Of a stretch of 64,000 nt of DNA, positions 28,330 through 64,000 are shown piece after piece. Source of the DNA: a virus; the IMG/VR virus record IMGVR_UViG_3300049734_000086, positions 10,431 to 74,430 of that record; one strand, 5' to 3'. Positions within the stretch are counted from its first letter, which is position 1. Every line of letters starts with the position of its first letter. The position numbers were made by a program, and so were the translations under genes. Under the pieces are notes generated by a model, which was not told the DNA's origin, did no database searches, and was given only the letters and a program-made list of their open reading frames with translations.

Positions 28330-28622
28330 CAGTTGACCGTGTCCGTGTGGCCAGTGTCCGCCTTGGCCTTGACGGTCCTGGCCTTCGCCGTCTGGTAGTA
28401 ACCACGGCACGCCTCGACGAGGACGAGCCCGGTGGTCTGCACGTTCCGATCGTTGAGTACCCACTGGTACCGCAGGCAGATCTCCAGTCGAACGACCAGC
28501 CCGTGGACCATGGCGAGCAACTGGTCCCGTTCACTGCCTCCTATCGCCTCTGCGGATTCGATCAGCGCGTCCACGACTTCGGTCTGCAGGCTCTCTAGGC
28601 TGGGTGTGTCGTCTTGGTTCAT
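28329..28622 (-). CDS. hypothetical protein
   Basis: Coupled between terminase subunits. Confidence 0.5.
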   Translation of the reverse strand: MNQDDTPSLESLQTEVVDALIESAEAIGGSERDQLLAMVHGLVVRLEICLRYQWVLNDRNVQTTGLVLVEACRGYYQTAKARTVKAKADTGHTDTVN

Positions 28623-28626
28623 GGTG

Positions 28627-29529: not shown

Positions 29530-29745
29530 GGGGAATTAGGCTCCAGAATCAGGGGTCATCGACGGGTCTGGGCAGGCAGGGTAACAGGAATTCGGTGTTA
29601 CCGGGTAGCCCTGGGCTGCCAGCGGGGTACTGCGGCGGGGTCTGGCAAGGGTACTGCGGGCCGGGCCAGGGAGGTCAGTTACTGGGCTCTGGGGCTTATG
29701 GCTGAGCTAGGTCCTGGCAGCCTGGAAAGTGTCTCAAAATAGGAC

Positions 29746-37881: not shown

Positions 37882-37883
37882 GG

Positions 37884-47832: not shown

Positions 47833-48313
47833 ATGGGCGTGAGGAACAAGGCCGAATGGGCGGCCGAGATGAACGGGGTCGCCGCCATTGTCCATCAGGC
47901 GATTCGTGGCGGGATGCGACTGGGACTGAGCCGGGAAGCGGCGGCGCTGGGGGCCCAGATCGGGGTCCTCAGCTTCATGCGCGTGGATGGCGTGAACGAG
48001 GACGATGTGATTCGGGAGGCCAAGAAGGCAGTGCCGGTCGGGCCTCCCGGACGGGTGACGCAGGTATGACCGGCGGCGACGGCCGATGACCACGGTGACC
48101 ACGGAGACCAGTATGACTGCCGATGAAGCACGCAACGCAACGATCGAGGCCCTGGTGCGGGAGGTGGATTACCTGCTCCCCAACGACTATCCGGCGTGGC
48201 TCGAACTCGCCCGTCGCGCCGTTACCACTGAGCGCAAGATCGAGAGCATCGAGGCCCGGGTCACGGCGGCCCTGACCGAGCTGGTGGATGCCGGGTACGG
48301 CCACGGTGTCTGA
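47833..48313 (+). other. two small hypothetical genes (47833-48069, 48086-48313)
   Basis: Short ORFs in operon orientation. Confidence 0.5.
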
Positions 48314-48315
48314 CC

Positions 48316-50028: not shown

Positions 50029-50033
50029 ATCGC

Positions 50034-50864
50034 ATGGCGAAAAATGAGAAGCGCGTCTCCCTGCGGCCCGAGGATGCCGTCCAGGGCGGGCTGATCGAAG
50101 ACGTGGATGTCACGTTCAAGGCAGCGGGGTTTCAGTTGTTCGACTACAACGGCAAGGCCGATCCGTGGGTCTGCCTCCGCATCGACATGGAGGACAGTGA
50201 AGGGGATCTGCACGAGCAGTTCTTCTCGGCGGCCAACCCCGATCACTTCGCGCCCTCCAGCGATGGGGACTACATCGTCTCGACCGGCGAGAAGGGATCA
50301 CTGAACAAGGGCTCGAATTACATCGAGTTCATGACCTCGCTGATCAACGCGGGATTCCCCTCCCCGGCGTTGGACGAGGGGATCAGTGCCATCGTGGGGA
50401 CCAAGGTCCACGTGGTCCGCAGGCCCGCGACCGTGCGCCGGGGGATCATCAATCAGGCCGGTGGGGAGAACCAGCGCGAGAAGACTGTGTTGGAAGTGAG
50501 CAAGATCCTGGAGCTGCCCGAGGCCTTGAGGGGGAAGGGTGCGAAGGCGGCGAAGGGGGGTACCAAGACCACGACGGCTACCGCGAGTGGGAAGACCAAC
50601 GGCAAGGCCAAGCAGGTCGAGGAGAGCGAGCTGGACGAGGACGATGTGACGTTGGCCGAGTACGTCAAGGAGCTGCTGGCGGAGGCGGACGGTGAGGACA
50701 TCAAGGTGACCGATCTGGTCCAGAAGGTCTTCGCCGGGTACCCGAAGGGGGAGAACAAGAAGGCCGCCACCAAGCGGGTGATCAAGGAGGACTTCCTGCA
50801 GGCGGCGGCGTCGGCTGGGTACTTCCTCTACGCTGACGGGGAAGTGTCGGCGGTCCCGGAGTAA
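50034..50864 (+). CDS. hypothetical replication protein (possible ssDNA-binding)
   Basis: Beta-rich N-domain, K/T linker, acidic region; between helicase and nuclease. Confidence 0.45.
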   Translation: MAKNEKRVSLRPEDAVQGGLIEDVDVTFKAAGFQLFDYNGKADPWVCLRIDMEDSEGDLHEQFFSAANPDHFAPSSDGDYIVSTGEKGSLNKGSNYIEFMTSLINAGFPSPALDEGISAIVGTKVHVVRRPATVRRGIINQAGGENQREKTVLEVSKILELPEALRGKGAKAAKGGTKTTTATASGKTNGKAKQVEESELDEDDVTLAEYVKELLAEADGEDIKVTDLVQKVFAGYPKGENKKAATKRVIKEDFLQAAASAGYFLYADGEVSAVPE

Positions 50865-50961
50865 GGCGAAGGATGCTGAGGGGGTCGGGGCTAATTGTTC
50901 GGCCCCAGACCCCCGTTCGTCACCCACGGCCCACAAGGTCAGTCTCCCCCAACGAGACCCC

Positions 50962-51606
50962 ATGCTCATCGTCCCGCGCGCCGAGCCTCTGCCTACACTC
51001 CCCCGGACGGCGCGGCCGTACCGCGACCCCGGCATCCACGTCTCGGCCATCATCAAGGACCTGTGCGTGGCCCTGGACCCCGAGCGGTTCGGGGACAACA
51101 AGACCGAGCGGCAACAAGCAGCGGACGGGCGGGACGAGTTCTACGAGGACCTGGAAGAGAACCCCAAGATCTGGCTCGGGCAGGCGGTGGACCAGTACCT
51201 CACCGCTTGCCGCAGCCGGTCGGGGTCCCTGGCCTTCCGCCCCCTGGCCGTGAAGCACCAAGGCGTGTGGGCCAGCACCGATCTCATCGTCCTGACCGAC
51301 GAGCCGCCACGGCCCAGGCTCCCGGGGGACTCAGACGACCTGCTGGTCGAGGAATTCAAACTGACCTGGATGTCCGTCCGGTCTGGGATCGAGGACCGCA
51401 AGTTCGTTCATTGGTTCTGGCAGATCAAGTGGTACGCCTGGGTCCTAGAGACGGTGCGGGCCCGGCTGCGGGTCTACTTCGTCAACGGGGACTACGGGCC
51501 GCCGAGGCCGCAGTACCGGGTCTGGGATCTGCTGTTCACGTATCGGGAATTGGAGACCAACGCAATGATGTTGCTCGGGCACGCACGGAAGCGAGGCTTA
51601 CTCTGA
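50962..51606 (+). CDS. PD-(D/E)XK (Cas4-like) exonuclease
   Basis: HVS, STD, EEFKLT, QIKWY. Confidence 0.7.
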   Translation: MLIVPRAEPLPTLPRTARPYRDPGIHVSAIIKDLCVALDPERFGDNKTERQQAADGRDEFYEDLEENPKIWLGQAVDQYLTACRSRSGSLAFRPLAVKHQGVWASTDLIVLTDEPPRPRLPGDSDDLLVEEFKLTWMSVRSGIEDRKFVHWFWQIKWYAWVLETVRARLRVYFVNGDYGPPRPQYRVWDLLFTYRELETNAMMLLGHARKRGLL

Positions 51607-51607
51607 C

Positions 51608-52447
51608 ATGGCCATCACCACGACGACTAGTACCAGTACCACCATCACCGCCCCCGCCGGGTCCTCGTTCAAGGAACTCAAGGAGGCCGATCCCCCGCGC
51701 CATCTCATCGCCGCCATCGACGGGCTCCCCCGGGAGGGCCGGACCCATTTCAGTCTGACCGCCCCGTACCCCCTGGCCTACATGCAGATGGACCCAGGGG
51801 GCGACGACGTGCTGCCGAAGTTCCTGCCCGGCGGCCCCTTCCACCGCAGCAAGTCCAAACTGTTCCACTCCGCCTACTACGTCGATGTGCGGCCGGGGCT
51901 CTCACCGCTGGAGGTGTCCAAGATCGCCAACGACATTTGGCTCCGCAGCGCCCAGGACTTCGAGGCGGCGCTCAAGACCATGCGGACCCTGGTGGTCGAC
52001 ACCGCCAGTGAGTGGTTCACGTGCCTGAAGCTGGCCCGGTTCGGCAAGCTCACCCAGGTCATGCCTGAGGACTACGGCCCGGTCTACGCCGAGTTCCGCA
52101 GACTGATCCGCAAGGCCTACAACTACGAGTGCAACGTCCTGCTGCTGCACAAGCTCAAGGACGAGTACACCCGGGACGAGAAGACCACCGACGGCAGTGG
52201 GAACAGTCGGCGGAAGCCTGGGAAGAAGACCGGCAATCTGGTCCGCGACGGGTGGAACGGGCTGAAGTACGAGGTTCAGATCGAGGCCCGCTGCTTCAAG
52301 GACGAGGACCGGGAGTTCTGCCTGGAGGTGGTGAACTGCCGACAGCGGCCCGAGCTGGACGGCGAGGTGCTACCGCAGGAGATGTGCAACTTCCAGCAGT
52401 TGGCGATGCAGGTGTACCCCGGGACCAAGGAATCGGACTGGCGGTAA
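51608..52447 (+). CDS. AAA_24/Sak4-like ATPase
   Basis: GLPREGRT Walker A variant, TLVVDT Walker B; adjacent to exonuclease. Confidence 0.7.
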   Translation: MAITTTTSTSTTITAPAGSSFKELKEADPPRHLIAAIDGLPREGRTHFSLTAPYPLAYMQMDPGGDDVLPKFLPGGPFHRSKSKLFHSAYYVDVRPGLSPLEVSKIANDIWLRSAQDFEAALKTMRTLVVDTASEWFTCLKLARFGKLTQVMPEDYGPVYAEFRRLIRKAYNYECNVLLLHKLKDEYTRDEKTTDGSGNSRRKPGKKTGNLVRDGWNGLKYEVQIEARCFKDEDREFCLEVVNCRQRPELDGEVLPQEMCNFQQLAMQVYPGTKESDWR

Positions 52448-52467
52448 GGGAGAGGGGGCCGATAACC

Positions 52468-53040
52468 GTGCGCCACTACATCAAAGGGACCTTGTGGGAC
52501 CGCTTCTGGGCCCGGGTACGTACAGGAGATCCCGACGAGTGCTGGCCATGGACGGGCGGGGTCTCCCTGGACCGCCATGGGAACCCGAAGCGGGGGGTGG
52601 TCCGCGAGGCCGGGCAGGGATCGAGGCTTCTGCTCGCTCACCGGCTCGCCCTGGCCTTCGCCGGGTCTGGCCTGCCTGACTACGATCTGAAAGTCTTCCC
52701 CGAGGGGCCGAGGGCCGGGCAACAGCGGCTCGCCTGCCACGTGTGCAATAACCGGCTCTGTTGCAATAATCTCCGGCACCTGTACTGGGGCACGGAGGAG
52801 GAGAACATCCATGACCGTATCCGTTGGCATCAGGAGCAACGGTACCGAGAGATCTTCATTGCCCTCTGCGGGCGCGAACCGACACCCGCAGAACTCCTGG
52901 CCGGAGTCGTGGCCGAAGATCCCGGTGATCGTGGTGGAGCAGTCGAGCAACAACAAGATCTCGGACCCCAAGGGCCGGGGGATGAGCACGACCTACGTGG
53001 CCCAGGACACCTGCCCGGAGAGCTGTCCGTTGAGGAATGA
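52468..53040 (+). CDS. HNH endonuclease
   Basis: RFWARV...CWPWTG, AHR, CHVCNN.LCCN..HL..GT..EN..D. Confidence 0.8.
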   Translation: MRHYIKGTLWDRFWARVRTGDPDECWPWTGGVSLDRHGNPKRGVVREAGQGSRLLLAHRLALAFAGSGLPDYDLKVFPEGPRAGQQRLACHVCNNRLCCNNLRHLYWGTEEENIHDRIRWHQEQRYREIFIALCGREPTPAELLAGVVAEDPGDRGGAVEQQQDLGPQGPGDEHDLRGPGHLPGELSVEE

Positions 53041-53650
53041 GGGGTGTTATGCCGAGACCGGGTGGGCGGGGCTGCAGACCTACCGGATCAACACGGTCCA
53101 GAAAGCCCTGCGGTGGAGTGTGACCAAGCTGGCCCAGGTGGAGGCCATGATGATCGGACGGCTGACCGGGACCCGAAGGCTGAGAGCCCATGTCGTGGGC
53201 GACTGCTCGACGGTCATGGGAGCCAGACACGTCGGTGGGGCACTCAGGCGGCACGAGGCCAAGCACGGGATGCGGGCCTGGACCTACACCCATGCGTGGC
53301 GCGAGGTGCATGCACTCGACTGGGCCGGGGCTCGAGTACTGGCCAGTTGCGGTACCGTGGGGGAGCTGCAGGAGGCGCACGACCGGATGTACGCGGCGAC
53401 CGTCATCATTCCCAGGACCGAGAGCCGGAAAGCCTACCAGTCCGGTGGGTTCACCATCATCCCCTGCCCCGCGCAGTTCAAGGACGCCAGGACCGGCCAG
53501 CGGCAGACCACCTGTGAGCGGTGCAACTTGTGCTCGGACACCAAGCGGAACTGGGCCCGCAAGCGGGTAGTGGGGTTCCAGCCCGACGGCCAGACCATGC
53601 CCCTGGAACGTACCGGGAAGCTGGTGTTCGGCGAGGCGGTGGTCCTGTGA
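52811..53650 (+). CDS. Cys-rich GP88-like (radical-SAM-related) protein
   Basis: TCPESCPL...CYA, RAHVVGD, WTYTH, CPAQ...TCERCNLC; start uncertain. Confidence 0.55.
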   Translation: MTVSVGIRSNGTERSSLPSAGANRHPQNSWPESWPKIPVIVVEQSSNNKISDPKGRGMSTTYVAQDTCPESCPLRNEGCYAETGWAGLQTYRINTVQKALRWSVTKLAQVEAMMIGRLTGTRRLRAHVVGDCSTVMGARHVGGALRRHEAKHGMRAWTYTHAWREVHALDWAGARVLASCGTVGELQEAHDRMYAATVIIPRTESRKAYQSGGFTIIPCPAQFKDARTGQRQTTCERCNLCSDTKRNWARKRVVGFQPDGQTMPLERTGKLVFGEAVVL

Positions 53651-54206
53651 CTGAGAGGCCAGACCACGACCGGGGCCTGCGCTTCGGGCTCGCCTTCTCG
53701 GCCCTCTGCACGTTCGGGTGCGGGGCATCGGCCTACTACTTCTTCACCACCGGCACCGATATGTGGGACGGCGCGGCTCTGGCCGTCTCCGTACTCGGGA
53801 TGTCGTTCTGGGCCCTGATCGGTCTGGCCACGGCGGCAGCGTACTGGGAGCGGAGGACGGGACTATGAAAGCCCCCGGGTGTCTCAACCATCCCATGTAC
53901 CTCGACCTGCTGGAGGCCGAGAAGCGTGGCGACCACCTGCTGGCCGTGGAGCAGTGCCAGTGCGGGATCGCCTTCCTGGGCCTCCTCGTCTGGGGCCTGC
54001 GTGGCTCCTGGGTCCTGGCCCTCCTCCACGTGGCGGTGATGTACTGGTCCGTCTACAGTCTCCGTCAGACCCACCGTTGCATGGACCAACTCGCCGAGGC
54101 CAAGGCCGGGTGGGAGGAGCTGGACCGCCAACTCTTCACCCTGTCGCTCGAACGCCATCTGACCTTCGTGGACCGGGTCCGGGGCAGAATGTCGGGGCCG
54201 CACTGA
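53647..54206 (+). other. two small membrane proteins (53647-53868, 53865-54206)
   Basis: Hydrophobic coupled ORFs. Confidence 0.5.
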
Positions 54207-55006
54207 TGCTCTACATCGACCCCCGCTCCGGCTCCGGCGACCTGCTCGGCTACTTCAAGAACCTCGGCGTCAAGGCCGTCCACCAGCGCATGGAGTTCGG
54301 CGACGTGTCGTTCGTGGGCCAGGGCCCGGACGGCCCCCATGCTGTGGGCATCGAGGTCAAGACCATCGGCGACTTGGTGTCGTGCATGGTCAACGGCCGC
54401 TACGCCGGGCATCAGCTCATTGGGCTGTCACAGACCTACGACGAGTGGTGGCTGGTGATCGAGGGCATGTGGCGGCCGAATTGGGAGTCTGGCCTGCTGG
54501 AGTGCTACAACCCGCCGAGGCGGGCCAGCAAGACCAGGGGGAAGTCTGGCCACAAGGGCTACTGGTACGCCCTCTCCTCGGGCGGACGGCGGTGGATGTG
54601 GAAGGAGGTGCAGGGCTTCATCAACACGATGATGAACCAGGGCGGGACCAAGTTCTGGCAGACCCGCGACCGCACCGAGACGGCCCGCTTCTGCGCCAGC
54701 CAGTACCACTGGTGGGCGAAGGAGTATCACAGCCATCAGAGTCTCAAGACGTTCGTGGACTACAAGGCGCGGGTCGGTACTGGCGAGGTGGGCGGCAAGG
54801 TCATGCTCATGGTCCCGACCTTCGAGCGCCGGATCTACAAGGAGCTGCCCTTGATCGGGTGGGAAAAGAGCGTGGACGTGGACACGGCCTTCCCCAACGT
54901 GCTCACAGCCGTCAATGCGAGTGAGAAGGACTGGCAGAGGATTCCGGGCATCGGGCCCACCATTGCCAAACGGGTCTACAAGGCCTTGAGGAGGGAGAAA
55001 CCATGA
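54206..55006 (+). CDS. ERCC4-domain nuclease with C-terminal HhH
   Basis: YIDPR, GD, IEVKT..DL, Q...L, IEG, IPGIG. Confidence 0.8.
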   Translation: MLYIDPRSGSGDLLGYFKNLGVKAVHQRMEFGDVSFVGQGPDGPHAVGIEVKTIGDLVSCMVNGRYAGHQLIGLSQTYDEWWLVIEGMWRPNWESGLLECYNPPRRASKTRGKSGHKGYWYALSSGGRRWMWKEVQGFINTMMNQGGTKFWQTRDRTETARFCASQYHWWAKEYHSHQSLKTFVDYKARVGTGEVGGKVMLMVPTFERRIYKELPLIGWEKSVDVDTAFPNVLTAVNASEKDWQRIPGIGPTIAKRVYKALRREKP

Positions 55007-55233
55007 TCCAGGCACGTAACTTCGGCTACGAGATCCGCGCCGAGCACACCGATGGCGGCCTGAACGTCCTGTCCGGGGTCGTCGCCCTCACCGCCGACAG
55101 CGAGACCGGCGAGGTGGAGTTCTGGTGCTGTGGCTGCGGCCGTGGCCCCGCCGAGCACATACTGACCAACGTGAAACGACTCACCAGTGATACCCTAGCG
55201 CCCCGACGACCAGTGAAGGAGTGACCAACGACC

Positions 55234-55542
55234 ATGGCCGATACGTACCGTACCCCGAGACAGGACCGAGGATCTGACCCCCGAGGCCCACGCCGCCCAC
55301 GCAATGCCCAGCCCGCCCCGCCCGACCAGGACGGCCGGGTGAAAGGCGTGGTCAAGAACCTGCAGGCGGACAAGGGCTGGGGCTTCGTCTCCGACGCCAA
55401 CGGCTTCGACTATTTCTTCCACTACTCCGCCCTGCCCGACGGCGTGGAGCTGAGTCACCTCTACGAAGGCCAGGAGGTGAGCTGGCGGCCCAGCGACTCG
55501 GATCGCGGGCCCCGGGCCGAGCAGTTGATGATCGGCGGGTGA
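55234..55542 (+). CDS. cold-shock domain protein
   Basis: GVVK..KGWGFV, DYFFHYS, GQEV, RGPRA. Confidence 0.88.
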   Translation: MADTYRTPRQDRGSDPRGPRRPRNAQPAPPDQDGRVKGVVKNLQADKGWGFVSDANGFDYFFHYSALPDGVELSHLYEGQEVSWRPSDSDRGPRAEQLMIGG

Positions 55543-55546
55543 GCCC

Positions 55547-56191
55547 GTGTCCAACGGCCTGCTGCGCGATACGTGGGAGTACCCCCACGGCGACCCCTCG
55601 ATCAAGATTTTCACTGACGCCACACGGAGATGGGACATGCGGATCCCCGAGGGCGGACGTGTCCTGGAGCTGGGCTGCGACGAGTCGGACTGGGCGGCCT
55701 GGATGAAGAAGGCGCGGCCCGACCTCACCATCATCGGTGTGGATGTGCGGGAGGTGAAGGGGTACGGCGGGGACCAGATGGTGGTGCAGGATGCAGCCGA
55801 CGAGTTCTGGCACATCGCCAACGCCTCCAGTATCGACGCCGTGATCTGCATCGGCAGCCTGGAGCACTTCGGTCTGGCCTACCAGTACTACGGCGACCCC
55901 AGGAACGAGAACGGTGATCGGTACACCGTGGACAACGCCTACCACTGGCTGACTCCCGGTGGTTTCCTCTACTACGACGTGCCATGGACGCCCGGGGTGT
56001 TCTTCATCTCCAGCAACAATCACTGGCGCTGTTACGCCGACCAGCAAGTGGAGCAGAGACTGACCTCTGTGCTCAGACCCATGGACCGGGGGTACGCCCA
56101 CCCGCACACGCAGCAGTGGCAGGACCTACGGCCCCTGGTACCGGCCGAGCCGTTCTGGTACCTGGCCCGGTGGTTGAGAAAGGATCCGTGA
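55547..56191 (+). CDS. class I SAM-dependent methyltransferase
   Basis: VLELGC, GVD, SLEHFGL, LTPGG. Confidence 0.8.
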   Translation: MSNGLLRDTWEYPHGDPSIKIFTDATRRWDMRIPEGGRVLELGCDESDWAAWMKKARPDLTIIGVDVREVKGYGGDQMVVQDAADEFWHIANASSIDAVICIGSLEHFGLAYQYYGDPRNENGDRYTVDNAYHWLTPGGFLYYDVPWTPGVFFISSNNHWRCYADQQVEQRLTSVLRPMDRGYAHPHTQQWQDLRPLVPAEPFWYLARWLRKDP

Positions 56192-56193
56192 CC

Positions 56194-56520
56194 ATGAACG
56201 CGAAAGACTACTTGGCCCTGCGCGAGGCGATCAAGAACCAGGAGCAGGTGACGGTCGAGTACAACAAGCCGGGGCGCGGAGTCGTGAGACGCCATGTCCG
56301 GCCCTACGAGGACAGTGTGAATAGGAGCGGGCGGCCGGTGATCTGGGGGACTGACAGCATCCATGGCCCCCGGCAGATCCACGCCTTCCGCCAGGACCGG
56401 ATCGTGAGCGTGAAGGAGAGCCAGCGGCCCAAGGAGTTCAAGCGGGCCAAGAGCATCGACAAGTACCTGGTGAGCGGCAACCCCGACAAAGCGGACGAAT
56501 TTGACCCCAACGGAGGATAG
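56194..56520 (+). CDS. stand-alone WYL-domain protein
   Basis: AIK....V.Y......R.V.PY......F..DRI. Confidence 0.75.
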   Translation: MNAKDYLALREAIKNQEQVTVEYNKPGRGVVRRHVRPYEDSVNRSGRPVIWGTDSIHGPRQIHAFRQDRIVSVKESQRPKEFKRAKSIDKYLVSGNPDKADEFDPNGG

Positions 56521-56934
56521 CGTGGCCAAGAAAACCAAGACCAAGACCAAGACCCGGGCAGCGGATCCGGTGGCCGAACGGCTGGAGAACTGCGAAGTGG
56601 ACATCAACGTGCTCTACAAGGCGGTCGAAAGTCTGACCAAGGAGGTCAAGGAGCTGAAGAAGCGGAAATAACAGACCGTTCGACCGACGACCCACGACGA
56701 CCCCTACGGAGACACCACGATGCCGACCCTGCGACAGAAGCATACCGCCCAGTACCAGGTCTTCAGCGCCCGGCCTGACACCTACATCGTCATCAAAGTG
56801 ACCATCGACGTCCTCAGCGGCGGCATCGGTCCCAACCGGATCACCGACGACTCCCTCGACGACACGGTGATCAGACTCGCCCAAACCATTGCGCTGGGGG
56901 TCGCCGGACTCCCAGTACCCGAGACGGTGGTCGC

Positions 56935-57564
56935 ATGAGAGACCACGACCGCCGCATCATCCACAGCTCGGTCGAGTCCGACTACCGCACCCCCATGGAA
57001 CTGATCTCCTCCCTCGACGAGGAGTTCCACTTCACCACCGACGTGTGCGCCAGCCACCGCAACGCCCTGTTCGCCAAGTGGTTCGGCCCTGGCCACCAGG
57101 ATCCGGCCCGCCGGGACGCCCTCTACAACGGCACCTGGGGAACAGGACCGCACTTCATCAACCCGCCCTACTCGAAGAAGCGAGCCGACGAGCTGAGGAA
57201 GGCCGGGGCCCCCGAGCCGGAGTGGCGCTGCTACCTGATCGAGCGGTGGGCCGAGCGGTGCTGGATGGAGAGTCTGACCCAGGTGGTCGTGGGCCTGTTC
57301 CCGTACTCCTCCCAGACGGCGTGGTGGAAGGAGCATGTCTGGCAGGGGGGCCGGATGGCCGACGGGTCCAAGCCCGAAATCCACTGGCGATGGCACCGGG
57401 CCTCGGAGGTCAGACTCTTCCACCACCGGCTGTCGTACCTCGACCCCGAGGGGATACCGACGGGGAACTCGGCCGGGGTCAACAGCGCCGTGATCGTATG
57501 GAAGCCCCCGTGCGGGTACGTGGAGCCGTGGGTGCCAACAGTGAGGTACTGGACCTACGAGTGA
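56935..57564 (+). CDS. phage DNA N6-adenine methyltransferase (Dam-like)
   Basis: YRTP, F..DVCAS..NA, NPPYS, T.WW, EVR. Confidence 0.85.
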   Translation: MRDHDRRIIHSSVESDYRTPMELISSLDEEFHFTTDVCASHRNALFAKWFGPGHQDPARRDALYNGTWGTGPHFINPPYSKKRADELRKAGAPEPEWRCYLIERWAERCWMESLTQVVVGLFPYSSQTAWWKEHVWQGGRMADGSKPEIHWRWHRASEVRLFHHRLSYLDPEGIPTGNSAGVNSAVIVWKPPCGYVEPWVPTVRYWTYE

Positions 57565-57621
57565 GAAGACCGTTCGTTTCGCTTGACAACCGAAGACCAA
57601 CCGATGACCAAGGAGACCACA

Positions 57622-58434
57622 ATGGCTACGAAGAAAACCGCTGACAAGTCGATCACGGCCAACGCTGAGATCGTAGAAATCCTGGAAGTCTCACGCGGGC
57701 AGATCGAGTGCTGCTTGCTCGGGGCGACTCCCTACATCTGCAACCGTATGAGCGAGAAGGGGGCGCGGGAACTGCTCATCCCCCGAGGCCGCAAGACCTC
57801 CGCAGAGAAAGCCACCACGCTCAAGCACGACCCACGGCTGGAGTACCGCTCCTCGCCCTACCTTGTCTCCGACCCCGCCTTCCCCACCTACATCGGCATC
57901 CTGGCCACCAGCTTCAAGAAGGCCATGATGACGGCGGCACTGGACATCCCTGGAGCCAAGAAGGCCCAGATCGCCCGCCTCGTTCACGTGCGCGCCGAGA
58001 CCGCCAATCAGCTCATTCCCCTCTACGGGGTGCCCGAGCTGCACATGGCCACAGTGCGCTCGGCCGACATGAACCGCACGCCAGACATCCGCACCAGGGC
58101 GACCCTCCCCAAGTGGGCCTGCAAGGTCACTATCACGTACGCAGTCCCGATGCTCCGGCCCCAGGCCATCGCCAACCTCCTGGCAGCGGCCGGGCAGATG
58201 TCCGGGGTCGGGGACTGGCGCGGGGAGAAGGGCTCGGGGAACTTCGGCGAGTTCGCCATCGTGGGCCCGGACAACCCAGAGTTCCTGGCCGTGATGCAGG
58301 CTGGTGGACGGGAAGCGCAACAGGCCGCGATTGAAGCGCCGAAGTGCTTCGACGACGAGACCCAGGACCTGCTCGATTACTACGACGGGGAGCTGAAGAG
58401 TCGAGAGCTGCGCGGAAAGGTAGCGGCTGTCTAA
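57622..58434 (+). CDS. Cas7/RAMP-like RNA-binding protein
   Basis: N-terminal strand + G.TPY, SFKKAM helix, C-terminal Gly-rich loop AGQMSGVGDWRGEKGSGNFGEF; AGGAG RBS. Confidence 0.65.
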   Translation: MATKKTADKSITANAEIVEILEVSRGQIECCLLGATPYICNRMSEKGARELLIPRGRKTSAEKATTLKHDPRLEYRSSPYLVSDPAFPTYIGILATSFKKAMMTAALDIPGAKKAQIARLVHVRAETANQLIPLYGVPELHMATVRSADMNRTPDIRTRATLPKWACKVTITYAVPMLRPQAIANLLAAAGQMSGVGDWRGEKGSGNFGEFAIVGPDNPEFLAVMQAGGREAQQAAIEAPKCFDDETQDLLDYYDGELKSRELRGKVAAV

Positions 58435-58902
58435 ATGAAGCTCTCGGCATTACAAATCGCATACATCCAGTCGTTCGGCGAGCGGGTCACAGCATCCCAG
58501 ATCGTCGCCGATGCCAAGCGGCTGGAGAGCCCCCTGCACGGGGAGTTCAACTGGGATGTCCAGGAAGCGGCCGAGCGCCACTGGCTGGACACGGCGAGGA
58601 GGATCATTCGCTCGGTGCCCTTGATGGTGGTGACCACGACCGCCACCATCAGGGCCCCGTACTACGTCCCGGATCCCGACAAGAAGGGGAACGAGGAAGG
58701 CTACGTGTCGCTGCCCGCGTTAGGGGAGCGGCCGAGGGCGTCCCAGATCCAGGCCCTGGTCAATGAGTGTGACCGTGTGGGCCGGGTGCTGCAGCGGGCC
58801 AGAGGGGTTGCGGCCGGGCTGGGGTTGGAAGACGAGGTCGAAGCGGTGCTGGAGCGGCTAGCCGGATTGAGACTGGCCATACAGGACACACTGGCGGCCT
58901 GA
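58435..58902 (+). CDS. small helical partner protein of the RAMP-like gene
   Basis: Abuts upstream stop; SPLH..F.WD..AAE..W...AR.II motif. Confidence 0.7.
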   Translation: MKLSALQIAYIQSFGERVTASQIVADAKRLESPLHGEFNWDVQEAAERHWLDTARRIIRSVPLMVVTTTATIRAPYYVPDPDKKGNEEGYVSLPALGERPRASQIQALVNECDRVGRVLQRARGVAAGLGLEDEVEAVLERLAGLRLAIQDTLAA

Positions 58903-58908
58903 TACCAG

Positions 58909-59810
58909 GGCAGTCATGGCCAAGCAGGGCATGGACTGATCTGGCACGGCGCGGTACGGCCGTCGAGGCTGCGACTGGTACGGTGTCGACCGGCCAGTCG
59001 CGGCGCGGCGGGGCGAGGTGCGGCAGGCATGGAGTGGTACGGCACGGAGAGCTGTGGTACGGCATGGAGAGGCAGTCATGGTTCGGATTGGCCAGGAGAG
59101 CCGTGGATAGTCGGGGCCGGGCGTGGCGGTCGCGGATAGGCGAGGCTAGACCTGGACTGATCGGAGCAAGGATTGGCGGTCGAGGCGAGGCGGGGCTTCA
59201 CGTGGCGCGGGTAGGCCCGGGAAGGCCGGGACTGGCATGGCGGTCAGCGCATGGCAAGGAGTGGTGTGTGGTTGTCACGGCGAGGCGCGGCGAGGATAGG
59301 CCGACAAGGTATGAACAGTTATGGCGCGGAGAGCTGTGCTAAGGAGCAGACTGGCCGTCGAGGTCAGATGCGGATTGTCACGGAGCGGAGGGGCTAGGTG
59401 AGGCTGTCCAGGACGGGCACGGCCGGGCGGAGAGGGGCCGGGCGAAGGTGAGGCAAGGCCGTCGTGGCCACACTGGGAGGGGTGGGGTACGGCGACGACG
59501 GGAGAGGCAAGGCAGTTCTGGCTGCATCAGGAGGGTCATGGCATGGCCGGGCGTGGCAAGGGCGCGGCTGTCGGCGCAAGGATTGCTGTGGAGTGACGCA
59601 GCACAGCAAGGCAGGGCGGTCGCGGAGTGGAGAGCCAAGGACTGCACCGGAGAGGCCTGCCGTGGTGAGGCGGTCGAGGCGGGGACGGGCATGGTCGGGA
59701 GACGGCAGGGCGAGCCAGGGATAGGCGGGGCGGTCCCGGCACGAGAAGGAAAGCAAAGGAAGGGAGGGACAAGATAACGCATGGCGAGAACGGCTGTGGC
59801 TCGGCAGGCC
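58909..59810 (+). ncRNA. array of ~16 units of (GGH-NN)n pentamers delimited by GGCNGTC; putative guide RNA array
   Basis: 5-nt periodicity read directly; delimiters at 58909, 58958, 59022, 59071, 59125, 59175, 59239, 59299, 59353, 59402, 59457, 59511, 59566, 59615, 59669, 59729. Confidence 0.7.
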
Positions 59811-62537
59811 AGGAAGGACAGTCTGCCGAGTCGACCAGTAGACTATCGGCTCTCACCGAATCACGTCCCCGGCCACGGCCCCCACGACGCCGACATCATG
59901 ATCGTCGGCGAAGGCCCGGGCCGGGTCGAGGACCGGGAGCGGCTGCCGTTCGTAGGCCCCAGTGGTCAGATTCTCACCGACGCCCTCGAACGTCCCGACC
60001 CACCACTCCTGCGCCGGGACTGCTACATCACCAACATCATCAAGCGCAGAATCCAGGACGACGAGGACCCGACGCCCGAGGAGATCGCGTACTTCACCCC
60101 CGAACTCCTTCGGGAGCTGGAGGAGGTGGACCCCGACGTGGTGATCGCGGCCGGGGCCTTCGCGGCCAGATTCTTCCTCGGGCCCGACTTCAACATGGAG
60201 TGGCAGCACGGGATGCCTGCGTGGAGCCATCAGTACGGGGTACCCGTCGTCCCCTGCTATCACCCCGCCTCCGCCCTCCATGACACCGAGCAGATGGACG
60301 CCGTCTACTGGGACTACGCCCGGGCCGGGGCCTTTGTGCGCGGGGTACTGGGGCTCCATCAGCCGAAGCCGAGGGTGACCCAGGTCCTCGACGCCGACCT
60401 GTTGCCGACCTTCCTGCCCCAGAACAGTACCCTGGGCATCGACACCGAGGACAAGGTCGACGGGACCCCCTGGTGCGCGACGGTGAGCTGGAAGGACGGC
60501 TCGGGGTGCTTCATCCCCGGCGACGACGAGCGGTCGGTCAAGCGGCTGCGTGTCCTACTGACCGACCCCACCCTCGCCGTCTACATCCACAACACCATGC
60601 ACGACCTCAAACCGCTCCGTCAGATGGGCGTGGACGTGGGGCGCGGGCTCGATTGGAGCCACCGGGGGGACTACGCGCGGGTGGTCGACACCATGGTCCT
60701 GGCCTTCGAGCAGGGCAAGATCCACACCCAGGGCCTCAAGACCCTCGCCTACCGCCTGCTGAACATCATCATGCAGGAGTACATGGACATCGTCGGGCCC
60801 GTGGCCCAGGAGCGGGCGTACTGGAAACTGGTCAAGTGGGCCGGTCACCAGTGGCCAGTCCCCGAGGCCACACCCAGTTACAACCCCGAGACCGGCAAGC
60901 TGACATGGTCCCGGCCCTGGGGGCTCAACACCCACTTCAACCGCCTGCTCGCGGACTTCAATCCTGCGCTCCGGGACTACCTGTACTTCAAGGCCACCAA
61001 GAAACGGCCCACGCCCCCGGAGGTGGACTTCGACTACATCCCGAACCCGGCCGTCGATCTCATCAAGCGATGGGAGAAGGTGGACCTATTCAAACGCGAG
61101 CAGGTCTCGGCCCAGTACGGCACTCACCGCATTGACGACACCGACCTCTCCCACTGCGACTTCACCACGGCCGCCCACTATGCCTGCCAGGACGCCGATG
61201 TCACACGGATCCTGGGCCGGGACCTGGAGGCCAGACACCGGATTCTGGACCTCACCGAGATCAGCGAGATCGACCACGGCCAGATCCCCATGGTCGAGCG
61301 CATGCAGGGCAACGGCATGCCCAGCGACCCCGACCACTTCCGCGCCCTCAGCCGGGAGATGCGGGAGCACGAGGCCACGCTGATTGGGGTACTCGAAACC
61401 ATCACCGGCCGCGAGCTGAACCCCAATAGCACCGACCAAGTCGCCGACCTCCTCTTCAAGGAGATGAAGCTGGAGGCCATCAAGACGACCAGGACCGGGA
61501 AGCTCAGTACCGGCAAGAAGGCCTTACAACACCTGCGGAAGACCAACCCGGTGGTCGAGTGGATCATGTCGAGCCGCGAGCACGTGAAGGTCTCGGGCTT
61601 CTGCGAGTCCATCGTCGAGTACACCCGGCTGATGGTCGACGGGGAGTACCGGGCCTTCTACGAGCTGATGGTCACCCGGGCCAAGACCGGCAGACTGGCC
61701 AGCAAGAAATTCAACGCCCTGGCCATCCCCGTACGGACTGCGCTGGGGAAGCGGATCCGGCACGGGTTCAAGGCGCGGCCCGGGCGGCAGTTGGGAACCT
61801 GGGACCTGAACCAGATCGAGATGCGGGTCATGGCCCACCGCAGCCAGGACCCCTTGATGCTGGAGATCTACAACCGCAACCCCAAGCGGTTCGCCAAGTG
61901 GGAGCGGGACCTGCACGTCGAGACCGCCAGCAAGATCTGGGGCTGTAGTCTCCAGGACGTGAAGAAGGACTGGAGGACCGCCGCCAAGTCCACGGGCTTC
62001 GGCATCATCATGGGCATCACGGGCGTGGGCCTCAGTGACCAGATGCGGCTCTACGGCCTGAACCCAGAGGACTGGCCCGAGGACCGCTGCGACGAGCTGA
62101 TCGCCGACTGGCTGAGGATCTACAAGGGGGTGAACGACTACCAGCAGGTGAAACGCGCCGAGGCCCGGAGGACGGGGGAAGTCCGGGACCTGTTCGACCG
62201 CCGCCACCGGCTGCCCCATGCCACCTGTCCACTGAGCTGGATCCGGGGGGAGGCCGAGCGGCAGTCGCATGCGCTCGATATTCAGGGCAGTGCCCAGGCG
62301 ATCGAGAAGATCTGCATGGCCAGAATCTGGCGCGAGCTGCTGCCGGAGCTGCGGTGGATGGGGCACTGCGAGCCCCTGCTGCAAGTACATGACGAACTGG
62401 TGTGGGAGTTCGACGAAGACCTGGGGCCGGTGATCGACCCCTTGATGCTGCACTACTTGACCACCACGGTCAGTCTCAGCGTCCCGATAGAGGCAGGCGG
62501 GGCGATGGGGCAGTCGTGGGGAGACTTGGAGAAGTGA
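59781..62537 (+). CDS. family A DNA polymerase with N-terminal uracil-DNA glycosylase (family 4-like) domain
   Basis: VGEGPG..E....PFVG.SG and YHP (UDG); IDTE, HN, YACQD (exo); DLNQIEMR, R..AK...FG, VHDE (pol); start uncertain. Confidence 0.92.
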   Translation: MARTAVARQARKDSLPSRPVDYRLSPNHVPGHGPHDADIMIVGEGPGRVEDRERLPFVGPSGQILTDALERPDPPLLRRDCYITNIIKRRIQDDEDPTPEEIAYFTPELLRELEEVDPDVVIAAGAFAARFFLGPDFNMEWQHGMPAWSHQYGVPVVPCYHPASALHDTEQMDAVYWDYARAGAFVRGVLGLHQPKPRVTQVLDADLLPTFLPQNSTLGIDTEDKVDGTPWCATVSWKDGSGCFIPGDDERSVKRLRVLLTDPTLAVYIHNTMHDLKPLRQMGVDVGRGLDWSHRGDYARVVDTMVLAFEQGKIHTQGLKTLAYRLLNIIMQEYMDIVGPVAQERAYWKLVKWAGHQWPVPEATPSYNPETGKLTWSRPWGLNTHFNRLLADFNPALRDYLYFKATKKRPTPPEVDFDYIPNPAVDLIKRWEKVDLFKREQVSAQYGTHRIDDTDLSHCDFTTAAHYACQDADVTRILGRDLEARHRILDLTEISEIDHGQIPMVERMQGNGMPSDPDHFRALSREMREHEATLIGVLETITGRELNPNSTDQVADLLFKEMKLEAIKTTRTGKLSTGKKALQHLRKTNPVVEWIMSSREHVKVSGFCESIVEYTRLMVDGEYRAFYELMVTRAKTGRLASKKFNALAIPVRTALGKRIRHGFKARPGRQLGTWDLNQIEMRVMAHRSQDPLMLEIYNRNPKRFAKWERDLHVETASKIWGCSLQDVKKDWRTAAKSTGFGIIMGITGVGLSDQMRLYGLNPEDWPEDRCDELIADWLRIYKGVNDYQQVKRAEARRTGEVRDLFDRRHRLPHATCPLSWIRGEAERQSHALDIQGSAQAIEKICMARIWRELLPELRWMGHCEPLLQVHDELVWEFDEDLGPVIDPLMLHYLTTTVSLSVPIEAGGAMGQSWGDLEK

Positions 62538-62746
62538 TGAACGGACGCTACATCGCCAAGACCTTGGCTGACTACCCGACGCTACGGTCGACTGGAATCA
62601 TCAGCGCCGTGGTCGTGCAAGAATTTCTAACCGAGCAGGACCCTGGTGAGGGGTACCGGCTTCTACCGCCCACGCAGTTCACGGGCGGCTGGATGTTCAT
62701 TTGGGAATGGCAGCCCAGCGACGGCAAACACGACTGACCCCGTGCG

Positions 62747-62776
62747 TTGACCGCACACTGACCTTCTAGGTAAGAT
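62747..62776 (+). promoter_or_regulatory. putative sigma70-type promoter
   Basis: TTGACC-18 bp-TAAGAT upstream of 62813. Confidence 0.45.
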
Positions 62777-62812
62777 TGACCCCGTACGACCTCAAACAAG
62801 GAGCAACCCGCA

Positions 62813-63454
62813 ATGGCAACCAGCAAGAAGAAAGGCTTCATGGCCGACTCCGTCCGCAAGGCGAAGCTGAAGTTCGGCACCAGTACCAGCACCAAGCCCA
62901 AGGCCCACGCCGCAAAAGCCAAACCGGCCCCGGCCCGCAAGAAGAAGACCAAGGCCAAGGGCCCCAAGCCCCCGCGCCCGGTCGGGGTCTCCACGCCCAG
63001 CCCCACGGCCACCGAGACCGAGGGCACCTTCACCCAGTACCCCGTCCTGGCCAGCCTGCCCGACCTCGTGAACCTTCACCAGACCGCCCACAAGGACATC
63101 AAGGACGCCCTGGCCTCCGTGGCCAGTATCACGGGCCCGGCCGAACAGGTGAAGAAGAAGGCAGCCGGGGACATCGAGGCCCTGCTCGTCGCCGCCGACC
63201 TGGACGGGACCGAGGACGAGGGCGTGACGGTCGGGGAGCGCCGGGTCAAGCGGATCGAGGTCCAGGGTGAGGAGTACGTGGACACGGTCATGCTGCTGGA
63301 GGCCGGGGTCCCCATCGACACCATCAAGGCCTGCACCAAGCGCAAGGAGGGCTACTCCTACGCCCTGGTCATCAACCCGAAGAAGAAGGGCCAGACGGCC
63401 ACGGTGGCGGACGCTGAGGAAGGAGAGGGCCATGGCCACAAGAAGTACGCCTAA
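62813..63454 (+). CDS. hypothetical protein with Lys-rich N-terminus
   Basis: AGGAG RBS; 213 aa. Confidence 0.6.
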   Translation: MATSKKKGFMADSVRKAKLKFGTSTSTKPKAHAAKAKPAPARKKKTKAKGPKPPRPVGVSTPSPTATETEGTFTQYPVLASLPDLVNLHQTAHKDIKDALASVASITGPAEQVKKKAAGDIEALLVAADLDGTEDEGVTVGERRVKRIEVQGEEYVDTVMLLEAGVPIDTIKACTKRKEGYSYALVINPKKKGQTATVADAEEGEGHGHKKYA

Positions 63455-63878
63455 GAAGAAGAAGGCCAAGGTCAGGACCACGGCTAGAACCCCCAAACGG
63501 CAGGCCAGGGTGACCGCCAGGACACGACCATCGACCCCCACGGCCAAGGAGTGGGGGGTGGTCAACGTGGCTCCTGAGGTCTTCCAGGACGCCCTGCGGC
63601 ACCCCGAGACCGTCTTCGTGCCCCTCCGCAACGCCTTCGACCAGGACGGGTTCGAGGCCCAGGACCGGCGGCTCATCGTCCGGGACAAGCAGGACGGCCG
63701 TCTGGCCGTGGGGAAGGCGATTGCGACCGAGCCTCACGGCATCACCCTCGGCACCCTGTGGCGGCTGCCCCCCGAGTACAGACTGGCCCAGGGGGAGTAC
63801 CTCACCGGGGCCATGGTGGTGCTGGTAAGCCCCAACATCCCGCCCAAGGCGAAGTTCATCGTCGACCGGATGAGGTAG
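63432..63878 (+). CDS. hypothetical protein with basic N-terminus
   Basis: MATRSTPKKKK start after GGAG. Confidence 0.55.
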   Translation: MATRSTPKKKKAKVRTTARTPKRQARVTARTRPSTPTAKEWGVVNVAPEVFQDALRHPETVFVPLRNAFDQDGFEAQDRRLIVRDKQDGRLAVGKAIATEPHGITLGTLWRLPPEYRLAQGEYLTGAMVVLVSPNIPPKAKFIVDRMR

Positions 63879-64000
63879 GGGGAAGTGGACAGCCGGGGGC
63901 GAGTCGTGTAGGCTTCCGGGCCTATGCGATAGCTCCTCACATAGCCAGACAAGTACCACGAGAGACCGTAGCGGCCCGCCACTCATGCATCCCAGGCATG

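What the first reader, a model, noticed from the sequence alone, without database searches (positions are those of the whole stretch)
57622..59810. Candidate CRISPR-independent RNA-guided system: RAMP/Cas7-like protein + partner + pentamer-coded repeat array
Seen: two abutting genes followed 6 bp later by ~900 bp of non-coding sequence with a 5-nt period. A semi-conserved triplet (mostly GGC/GGT/GGA) alternates with a variable dinucleotide, e.g. GGC-AC-GGC-GC-GGT-AC. GGCNGTC-like delimiters cut the tract into units of 49, 64, 49, 54, 50, 64, 60, 54, 49, 55, 54, 55, 49, 54 and 60 nt. Ten of 15 lengths are 5n+4 and the rest are 5n, and every unit carries a different NN string. Known: the C-terminal Gly-rich loop (GVGDWR...GNFGEF) is the type found in RAMP proteins such as Cas7, which polymerise along guide RNAs with a fixed nucleotide step. 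Inference: each unit is a guide RNA, one protomer binds each pentamer through the GGH triplet, and the NN bases are displayed for target recognition. No cas1/cas2, Cas effector nuclease or CRISPR repeats are nearby, so it may act by binding or silencing competitor or host DNA. From memory this resembles recently reported phage RAMP + GGY/NN repeat ('VIPR'-type) systems, which I cannot verify here.
Basis: partly seen in the sequence, partly recalled or inferred. Interest (0 to 1): 0.97.

Follow-up and report, generated by a model that had tools for sequence, protein, structure and literature searches.

The report
Phage VIPR RNA-guided silencing locus
An uncultured GC-rich phage carries a VIPR system, an RNA-guided DNA-silencing system first described in 2026 preprints: a Cas7-like protein, a small partner protein and about 16 tail-less guide units. 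It is a new member of a known kind, not a new kind.

Summary
Two abutting genes (57622-58434 and 58435-58902) are followed 6 nt later by about 830 nt of G-rich, strand-specific DNA with a 5-nt period. This is the only such tract in the 64-kb window.

The 270-aa protein folds as a Cas7/Csm3-type RAMP. It falls in the same PHROG family (phrog_4652) as the experimentally characterised Vipr of coliphage SUSP1, and it keeps that protein's GG-binding residues. Of 114 homologous loci, 107 carry the same kind of array next to the gene, and 4 of the other 7 are cut too short to show one. Among close relatives the NN positions change 3 to 5 times faster than the GG positions.

The system is therefore a VIPR locus, as described in bioRxiv 10.64898/2026.04.26.720920 and follow-up preprints. 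It differs from the characterised type II system in four ways:
- The accessory protein belongs to a different family (phrog_15946).
- The Vipr has a C-terminal helical extension.
- The guides have no structured tail.
- Sixteen units are joined head to tail and separated only by a 4-nt step (CNGT or CAGG, a -1 phase slip). This fits the published but experimentally untested "staggered array".

No natural target was found above chance. This scan noted the same stretch before.

The parts
57622..58434 (+). vipr: 270-aa RAMP (Cas7-like) protein. It has an RRM core, a thumb hairpin at about residues 139-162 (R159), a G-loop at 191-209 (GVGDWR...GNFG), and a C-terminal helical extension at 215-270 that SUSP1 Vipr lacks.
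   Evidence: Matches phrog_4652 at E 2.3e-10 over profile positions 6-189 of 194. SUSP1 Vipr is in the same PHROG. hhalign to SUSP1 Vipr gives 92.6% probability, E 4.7e-7. About 2,000 homologues exist in public metagenome and genome protein sets.
58435..58902 (+). vap: 155-aa accessory protein. It has an alpha/beta N-terminal domain (1-97) and a C-terminal antiparallel helical hairpin (100-155).
   Evidence: Matches phrog_15946 at E 7e-7. This is the same family as the gene next to the Vipr homologue in Mycobacterium phage BobaPhett and Gordonia phage ODay (hhalign 99%). It is conserved directly after vipr in most homologous loci. The model has pLDDT 90. It is unrelated to SUSP1 vap1.
58903..59735 (+). 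Staggered vrRNA array of 16 units. Each unit has 5 to 12 YNNGG pentamers; most have 9 to 12. Units are separated by 4-nt steps that start at 58911, 58960, 58995, 59024, 59073, 59127, 59177, 59241, 59301, 59355, 59404, 59459, 59513, 59568, 59617, 59671 and 59731.
   Evidence: There is no Rfam family and no hammerhead.
59736..59780 (+). Purine-rich leader and ribosome-binding region of the downstream UDG-fused family A DNA polymerase gene (59781-62537). It is not part of the array.
   Evidence: Sequence reading; Pfam UDG plus DNA_pol_A.

Best explanation
This is a VIPR (Viral Interference Programmable Repeat) system of a tailed phage.

The array is transcribed with, or just after, vipr and vap from the plus strand. 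Vipr protomers bind the RNA one per pentamer. The G-loop (D198, W199, R200), the thumb arginine (R159) and the beta-1 residue N41 hold the two G's and the pyrimidine. The two variable bases of each pentamer are left exposed. A filament of about 9 to 12 protomers then reads double-stranded DNA by the published rule of two bases read and one skipped. It sits on the target and blocks its transcription. The likely target is a competing phage, prophage or satellite in the same host.

Vap, a small protein with a helical-hairpin tail, assists. In SUSP1 a different Vap is needed for full protection.

What is specific here is the punctuation. The 16 guides carry no structured tail and no ribozyme. They are set apart only by a 4-nt step (CNGT or CAGG) that shifts the GG register by -1. 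I propose that this step ends one filament and starts the next.

Shown here: the fold, family membership, conserved RNA-contact residues, conserved locus architecture, and the constraint on GGY against the free variation of NN.

My hypothesis only: that the phase slip is the delimiter.
For: Fold. Csm3, Cmr4 and Cas7 are the best matches. Viral RAMP-like proteins match in BFVD.

Family. phrog_4652 holds SUSP1 Vipr (E 1.4e-96), BobaPhett gp52, ODay gp19 and this protein. hhalign against SUSP1 Vipr aligns the GVGDWR G-loop at 92.6% probability.

Residues. The SUSP1 residues that contact GG, R138, D177, W178 and R179 (paper 10.64898/2026.04.26.720927), align to R159, D198, W199 and R200. R159, D198 and R200 are invariant and W199 at least 90% conserved in the 30-sequence clade alignment A1; across the wider alignment that includes SUSP1, R159 and R200 are invariant and D198 at least 90%.

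Architecture. The order vipr, vap, array recurs in 76 of 80 IMG/VR loci. Three of the four exceptions end before an array could appear. It also recurs in 31 of 34 bacterial-genome loci.

Code. Over 4570 family pentamers, position 1 is Y in 83% and positions 2 and 3 are near-uniform. Between loci whose vipr genes are 96-98% identical, mismatch rates are G1 3.7%, G2 6.0%, Y3 10.5%, N4 18.0% and N5 18.7%.

Unit size. Units of 9 to 12 pentamers fit the published range of 9 to 16 repeats. The -1 slips fit the published 'staggered arrays ... 1 nt overlapping positions'.
Against: - There are no RNA data for this phage, so transcription, processing and Vipr binding are untested.
- No target was found. 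NNx-rule scans with four units against IMG/VR, and one unit also against GTDB genomes and JGI metagenomes, gave nothing above chance. No unit matches the phage's own genome beyond shuffled controls.
- The array is more decayed than those of relatives. Only 66% of its pentamers keep GG, and five units have internal slips.
- H17 of SUSP1 Vipr is N41 here. The pyrimidine-pocket residues E71, M72 and C173 are T96, S97 and S194.
- The Vap fold gave no functional assignment.
Confidence: 0.88

Rival explanations
1. It is a VIPR locus in decay. The proteins are intact, but the array is drifting, and many of its units no longer load Vipr or no longer match any target.
For: Only 105 of 159 pentamers end in GG. 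Several units keep 3 to 5 in-phase GGs out of 9 to 11. Relatives such as L057, L065 and BobaPhett have much cleaner GGC-NN tracts. No targets were found.
Against: [quoted passage not shown] The boundary marks are kept at 17 sites. Both genes are intact, and the residues conserved across the family are kept. At least six units keep 7 to 11 good pentamers.
Confidence: 0.15
2. The system works as VIPR, but its targets are the host's or the phage's own genes. It would then serve gene-expression timing or host takeover, not conflict with rival mobile elements.
For: The locus sits inside the replication and recombination module, directly upstream of the DNA polymerase gene. No rival element was identified as a target.
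Against: No unit matches the phage's own 74-kb genome better than shuffled guides do. The best are 15 of 18 and 16 of 20, within the control range. The published systems showed no self-targeting and hit satellites or prophages. The host is unknown, so host targets could not be tested.
Confidence: 0.1
3. The tract is not a guide array. It is a DNA-level element, such as a G-rich, G-quadruplex-prone repeat, an origin or a packaging signal next to the polymerase gene, and the RAMP-like protein has another role.
For: The tract is strongly G-rich on one strand and lies in the replication module. Its predicted RNA fold is more stable than shuffles (z -4.6, n = 20).
Against: The same array follows the gene in 107 of 114 homologous loci, in unrelated genomic contexts and across several phyla, including upstream positions in mycobacteriophages. 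The substitution pattern (GG conserved, NN free) is that of the VIPR code. A homologue in the same PHROG is shown experimentally to bind such RNA.
Confidence: 0.02

Closest known systems
Type II VIPR of Escherichia phage SUSP1 (NC_028808.2; vipr at 28474-29061 on the minus strand, vap1 at 28031-28471 on the minus strand). Sources: bioRxiv 10.64898/2026.04.26.720920, 10.64898/2026.04.26.720927 and 10.64898/2026.10.15.759431.
   Same: - The Vipr protein is in the same PHROG family (phrog_4652).
- The G-loop GVGDWR and the thumb arginine are shared.
- The repeats are YNNGG pentamers on the coding strand.
- It is a two-gene operon with an array downstream.
- It is phage-borne and lies in the replication module, next to the DNA polymerase gene in both phages.
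- There are no cas genes.
   Different: - Vipr is 270 aa here against 195 aa, with a helical extension of about 55 aa at the C-terminus.
- H17 is N41 here.
- Vap belongs to an unrelated family (phrog_15946 against phrog_5926).
- SUSP1 has four vrRNAs of about 100 nt, each with a tail of about 40 nt (a hairpin, with a pseudoknot proposed by the authors). This locus has 16 abutting units of 29-64 nt with no tail, separated by a 4-nt step.
Actinophage loci in the same two PHROG families: Mycobacterium phage BobaPhett gp52/gp53 and 24 other mycobacteriophage records (Cheoctovirus and relatives), and Gordonia phages ODay, Ecliptus, Pipp and UmaThurman.
   Same: - The Vipr homologue is 28% identical at E 1e-12 to 1e-17.
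- The Vap is in the same family (phrog_15946).
- They have tail-less staggered arrays of GGC-NN pentamers with 4-nt steps.
   Different: - The actinophage Viprs lack the C-terminal extension and keep His at the H17 position.
- Their arrays are short, 3 to 4 units. In BobaPhett the array lies upstream of vipr and is annotated as CDS gp51.
- Their boundary is GGCAGGC, not GGCNGTC.
- I saw no sign that these records are annotated as VIPR.
Cas7-family RAMPs of class 1 CRISPR effectors (Csm3, Cmr4, Cas7)
   Same: RRM core with a G-loop and a thumb; VIA Z 8-9 over about 150 residues. They polymerise along a guide RNA with a fixed step.
   Different: - There is no detectable sequence similarity.
- The step is 5 nt, not 6 nt.
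- Only 2 of every 5 RNA bases pair.
- There are no cas genes, no CRISPR repeats and no adaptation module.
- The published Vipr tree places Viprs outside all CRISPR RAMPs.

Membership tests
VIPR system | Vipr protein with a RAMP fold (RRM core, glycine-rich loop, thumb) | tested here: met
   The AlphaFold2 model has pLDDT 84. The best Foldseek PDB matches are all Csm3, Cmr4 or Cas7 (E 1e-4). VIA gives Z 9.0, rmsd 3.6 over 149 residues to 9g9a_D, and ranks 1-28 are all CRISPR RAMPs.
VIPR system | Sequence homology to an experimentally characterised Vipr | tested here: met
   phrog_4652 is hit by SUSP1 Vipr (E 1.4e-96) and by this protein (E 2.3e-10, nearly full length). hhalign gives 92.6% probability, E 4.7e-7, over the thumb-to-G-loop segment only.
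VIPR system | Residues that hold the GG of each repeat (SUSP1 H17, R138, D177, W178, R179) | tested here: met
   R159, D198, W199 and R200 align to R138, D177, W178 and R179. In the clade alignment A1, R159, D198 and R200 are invariant and W199 is at least 90% conserved. H17 is replaced by N41, which is invariant in this clade; His is kept in the actinophage homologues.
VIPR system | Adjacent tandem YNNGG repeats (at least 4 units), on the strand of the gene | tested here: met
   There are 159 pentamers, 105 of them ending in GG, with Y at position 1 in 77%. They are on the plus strand only.
VIPR system | GGY conserved and NN hypervariable among related loci | tested here: met
   Mismatch per position in eight pairs of closely related loci: G1 3.7%, G2 6.0%, Y3 10.5%, N4 18.0%, N5 18.7%. 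NN composition is near-uniform over 4570 family pentamers.
VIPR system | Accessory vap gene beside vipr | tested here: met
   A 155-aa gene abuts vipr and is conserved in most homologous loci. Which of the published vap1-6 it corresponds to could not be checked, because the paper's supplementary data are not held.
VIPR system | Array transcribed into vrRNAs that co-purify with Vipr | not testable with these tools
   No RNA data are available. No sigma-70-like promoter or terminator was found around the locus.
VIPR system | Guides match natural DNA targets by the rule of two bases read and one skipped | tested here: inconclusive
   Exact NNx scans gave nothing above chance. Unit 59181 was run against IMG/VR, GTDB genomes and metagenomes. 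Units 59028, 59077 and 59463 were run against IMG/VR. The best lead is 17 of 20 in a cytosine methyltransferase gene of four related phages. It is in codon frame, but the shuffled maximum is 16 of 20 and the other units do not converge on those phages.
Type II VIPR (SUSP1 / P. fulva type) | Each vrRNA capped by a conserved structured 3' tail; vap1 as the accessory gene | tested here: not met
   Units abut with only a 4-nt step between them. There is no Rfam match. Vap is unrelated to SUSP1 vap1.
VIPR with staggered arrays (fig. S18 of 10.64898/2026.04.26.720920) | Adjacent vrRNAs offset so that the end of one is the start of the next (1-nt overlap) | tested here: met
The GG phase falls by 1 at most boundaries. 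The same -1 steps (CAGG, CGGT, CAGT) punctuate the arrays of relatives every 8 to 12 pentamers. The figure itself is not held, only its legend.
CRISPR-Cas class 1 effector (Cas7) | Encoded with other cas genes and a CRISPR repeat-spacer array | tested here: not met
   There are no direct repeats of CRISPR type in 48000-64000. There are no PADLOC or Cas HMM hits. The neighbours are a helicase, AAA_24, an ERCC4 nuclease, methyltransferases, a WYL protein and DNA polymerase.

The most novel reading that the evidence does not exclude
In this clade the guides are delimited by register alone. A single 4-nt step (CNGT or CAGG) among 5-nt repeats breaks the Vipr filament, and so measures out and separates 16 guides from one 0.83-kb transcript. 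No structured tail, ribozyme or Cas6-like handle is involved. The published work lists such 'staggered arrays' but confirmed only the ribozyme and single-guide architectures by sRNA-seq. How these RNAs are made, and whether they are cut at all or act as one long segmented filament, is open. The Vipr C-terminal extension and the phrog_15946 Vap would be the clade-specific parts of that mechanism.
Probability: 0.35. Interest if true: 0.55.

Novelty: new member of a known kind. Interest (0 to 1): 0.35.

Why it matters
VIPR is a newly described way of recognising DNA with RNA, and is proposed to be older than CRISPR. This locus adds nothing categorical, but it is useful in four ways.
- It is a compact, tail-less, 16-guide example from a GC-rich uncultured phage. 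Such a form is of interest for multiplexed programmable repression.
- The clade is very large, with about 2,000 proteins in public metagenome and genome protein sets, and it spans Proteobacteria, Actinobacteria, Acidobacteria, Planctomycetes and others.
- It links the clade to culturable, genetically tractable systems: Mycobacterium smegmatis cluster phages and Gordonia phages. There the staggered-array mechanism and the second Vap family could be tested directly.
- In at least one mycobacteriophage record (BobaPhett), the vrRNA array is annotated as a protein-coding gene.

Tried and rejected
- Sequence searches of the Vipr candidate. Pfam, PDB sequences and PADLOC gave no hit. megablast of 50000-64000 against INPHARED phages gave no match.
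- Vap function. A weak Pfam PDDEXK_12 hit (E 0.007) was not reproduced in 31 homologues. A PDB profile search gave only coiled-coil designs. Foldseek gave no match at E below 0.4. PadR-like regulators appear, but VIA aligns only the C-terminal helical hairpin. The ESM Atlas returned only unnamed viral clusters. The N-terminal domain is unassigned, and no fold quota was left to model it alone.
- Rfam. There is no hammerhead or other family in 57000-60500.
- Targets. Windows of 9 clean pentamers matched nothing in the phage's own genome at 2 or fewer mismatches under skip rules 0 to 2. The only skip-3 hits are the array itself. All 353 clean 8-pentamer guide strings of the family gave 0 hits against the about 0.7 Mb of family loci under skip 0 to 2.
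- An 18-of-18 match of unit 59028 in L093 is what chance predicts: 14 matches on 16 specified bases, times 1/16.
- Unit 59463 against the C5-methyltransferase gene of G001-G004 scores 17 of 20. I fetched those four genomes and tested all units under four skip rules with shuffled controls. There was no convergence, so I rejected it as evidence.
- I considered that the smaller pocket residues (T96, S97, S194) explain the looser third base. I rejected this as unsupported, because relatives with the same residues have clean GGC repeats.
Full report
WHAT IS THERE

The window is the last 64 kb of a 74,430-bp IMG/VR virus record with direct terminal repeats. Earlier notes of this scan describe it as an uncultured, GC-rich soil phage. 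On the plus strand, an ATG at 57622 with AGGAG 8 nt upstream opens a 270-aa gene that ends at 58434. A 155-aa gene starts at the very next base (58435-58902). Six bases after its stop the first GGCAGTC appears.

From there to about 59735 the sequence is non-coding, with 46% G and 22% C. It has a strong 5-nt period. Identity at lag 5 is 0.44-0.45, against about 0.27 at neighbouring lags, and z is 8.6 against 2000 shuffles. A sliding scan finds no other such tract in the 64 kb. GGNNNGG occurs 92 times per kb here, 13.5 times per kb elsewhere, and never on the minus strand of the tract.

ANATOMY OF THE ARRAY

A Viterbi parse into 5-nt tokens ending in GG, with penalised 4- and 6-nt tokens, shows what the 'delimiter' is. 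It is a 4-nt token: CNGT in most cases, CAGG once and CCGA once. Each one shifts the GG register by -1. The 5n units contain a compensating +1 slip.

With one further in-phase CCAGT mark there are 17 marks (58911 to 59731) and 16 units. Most units have 9 to 12 pentamers.

In the phase-aware parse, the base after GG is a pyrimidine in 77% of pentamers, and the next two bases are unconstrained. The repeat is therefore Y-N-N-G-G. The first pentamer after a mark begins with C in nearly every unit.

Only 105 of 159 pentamers keep GG, so this array is more worn than those of relatives. No Rfam family, hammerhead ribozymes included, matches. The last 45 nt before the DNA polymerase start codon (59781) are its purine-rich leader, not array.

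THE PROTEIN

Pfam, PDB-sequence and PADLOC searches find nothing. The protein does hit phrog_4652 at E 2.3e-10 over nearly the whole profile.

An AlphaFold2 model built on 30 homologues has pLDDT 84. Its best Foldseek PDB matches are all Cas7-family subunits: Csm3, Cmr4, type VII Cas7 and Cas7-11 (E 1e-4, probability 1.0). An all-against-representatives structural search gives Z 9.0 (rmsd 3.6, 149 residues) to Csm3 and 9.0 to Cmr4. The first 28 rows are all CRISPR RAMPs. In BFVD the best matches are uncharacterised viral proteins and one labelled as a RAMP superfamily protein.

THE LITERATURE

bioRxiv 10.64898/2026.04.26.720920 describes VIPR as follows:
- a Vipr RAMP protein, a vap accessory gene, and vrRNAs of 9 to 16 YNNGG repeats;
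- DNA recognition in which each NN pairs and one target base is skipped;
- transcriptional silencing of satellites and prophages;
- seven types, with array variants that include 'staggered arrays' whose vrRNAs overlap by 1 nt.

10.64898/2026.04.26.720927 gives the structures. One protomer binds each repeat. G1 is held by H17 and D177, G2 by R138 and W178, and Y3 by E71, M72, R179, C173 and T175. 10.64898/2026.10.15.759431 shows that SUSP1 needs vipr and vap1 to grow on satellite-carrying hosts. 10.64898/2026.10.21.760802 recovers 99 VIPR-like 5-nt-period clusters from intergenic DNA.

MEMBERSHIP, TESTED

I fetched SUSP1 (NC_028808.2). Its VIPR operon is at 28031-29061 on the minus strand, flanked by GGY-NN arrays with hairpin tails.
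- SUSP1 Vipr is the core of phrog_4652 (E 1.4e-96), the same PHROG as the window protein.
- A profile of the window's clade aligns to SUSP1 Vipr at 92.6% probability (E 4.7e-7) across the thumb-to-G-loop segment.
- In a joint alignment, R138, D177, W178 and R179 correspond to R159, D198, W199 and R200. R159, D198 and R200 are invariant and W199 at least 90% conserved in the clade alignment.
- H17 corresponds to N41. That position is invariant Asn in this clade and His in the actinophage homologues.
- The pyrimidine-pocket residues E71, M72 and C173 are T96, S97 and S194.

The partner gene is not vap1. It falls in phrog_15946, and SUSP1 vap1 falls in phrog_5926 with no detectable similarity.

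CONSERVATION OF THE ARCHITECTURE

The clade is large. There are 2192 proteins at E below 1e-3 in one collection and 1961 cluster representatives in another.
- Of 80 IMG/VR loci with a homologue, 76 have a 5-nt-periodic, G-rich array next to vipr-vap. It usually lies downstream, and sometimes between the two genes or upstream. Three of the four exceptions end before an array could appear.
- Of 34 loci in bacterial genomes and MAGs, 31 have one. These include Bradyrhizobium, Methylobacterium, Sphingomonas, Microvirga, Nocardioides and Acidobacteria.
- Over 4570 family pentamers, position 1 is Y in 83% and positions 2 and 3 are near-uniform. The 4-nt steps are CAGG (259), CGGT (46) and CAGT (44). 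The commonest spacing is 9 pentamers.
- In eight pairs of loci whose vipr genes are 96-98% identical, the arrays are 79-95% identical. Per-position mismatch is G1 3.7%, G2 6.0%, Y3 10.5%, N4 18.0% and N5 18.7%. This is the signature of a fixed handle with a free code.

CULTURED RELATIVES

tblastn finds 28%-identical homologues in 25 Mycobacterium phage records and 5 Gordonia phage records.
- In BobaPhett, gp52 (phrog_4652) and gp53 (phrog_15946) are preceded by four staggered units of GGC-NN with GGCAGGC boundaries and a 59-nt period. The record annotates this stretch as CDS gp51.
- In ODay, three units fill the gap after gp19.

VAP

The model (pLDDT 90) has an alpha/beta N-terminal domain and a long helical hairpin. 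Only the hairpin finds structural matches, and these are generic. Its function remains unassigned. The paper describes several vaps as predicted DNA binders, which I could neither confirm nor exclude here.

TARGETS

Using the published NNx rule, I searched in three ways.
- The phage's own genome: nothing beyond shuffled controls.
- All family loci: nothing.
- Public collections, by exact pattern. One 22-base pattern was run on IMG/VR, GTDB genomes and JGI metagenomes, and three 16-base patterns were run on IMG/VR. Hit counts match chance.

The most suggestive hit is unit 59463 against a cytosine-5 methyltransferase gene in four related phages of 64-68% GC. It scores 17 of 20 and lies in codon frame, and the four copies differ only at skipped positions. 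I fetched those genomes. No other unit matches them above controls, and the shuffled maximum is 16 of 20. I do not count it as evidence. Exact-pattern scans are a weak tool here, because published natural targets were accepted at 80% match or better.

CONTEXT

Upstream on the same strand lie a DinG-type helicase, an AAA_24 protein, DUF7227, an ERCC4 nuclease, a cold-shock protein, a methyltransferase, a WYL protein and a Dam methylase. Downstream is a UDG-fused family A DNA polymerase. There are no cas genes and no CRISPR repeats. SUSP1's VIPR also sits beside its ligase and polymerase genes.

VERDICT

This is a VIPR system, already a described kind, of a clade distinct from the characterised type II. 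It has another Vap family, a C-terminally extended Vipr, and tail-less staggered guides. What remains open and testable is how register slips alone delimit guides, and what this phage aims them at.

Noticed in passing
L083:2170-2368 (Mycobacterium phage BobaPhett NC_051636.1, about 37873-38071): The stretch annotated as CDS gp51 (hypothetical protein) is four staggered vrRNA-like units of GGC-NN pentamers. They have GGCAGGC boundaries and a 59-nt period, and lie directly upstream of the Vipr homologue gp52 and the Vap homologue gp53. The CDS call is probably spurious. The search hit 25 Mycobacterium phage records in all, which probably share this.
   Followed up: partly
L084:3129-3268 (Gordonia phage ODay MW534375.1): Three staggered pentamer units fill the 213-bp gap between gp19 (Vipr homologue) and gp20 (Vap homologue). 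The locus sits unusually inside the tail-gene block, between the tail assembly chaperones and the tape measure.
   Followed up: partly
window 29594-29670: This is a weak plus-strand patch of GG at 5- and 10-nt spacing, ending in GGAGGTC. It lies in the intergenic region ahead of the early operon. It might be a decayed orphan guide or chance, and it did not pass the lag-5 scan.
   Followed up: no
window 58969-59000: A near-perfect hairpin (GCGACTGG ... CCAGTCGC) lies inside the irregular second unit. The whole array folds more stably than shuffles (z -4.6, 20 shuffles). This is unexpected for RNA meant to be held single-stranded by a filament.
   Followed up: no
window 59781-62537: The DNA polymerase is a fusion of an N-terminal family-4-like uracil-DNA glycosylase domain, a 3'-5' exonuclease and a family A polymerase (918 aa).
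   Followed up: no
L145:1813-1841 (also L147, L149, L150; genomes G001-G004): Four related phages of 64-68% GC carry the site GTGCCGTGCGGCGGGACGTGGCGGGAGAA in a cytosine-5 DNA methyltransferase gene. It matches 17 of 20 read positions of unit 59463, in codon frame. The four copies differ only at skipped (wobble) positions. It is not significant against shuffled guides.
   Followed up: yes
L002, L016, L064, L068, L074, L081, L114, L115: In some relatives an array lies between vipr and vap, or on both sides of vap. Others (L017, L121, L122, L131, L143) also have an array upstream of vipr. The position of the array is therefore not fixed in the clade.
   Followed up: no
L063, L125, L135: These three homologous loci have enough flanking DNA but no detectable pentamer array. 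They may have lost their guides, or may use guides encoded elsewhere.
   Followed up: partly
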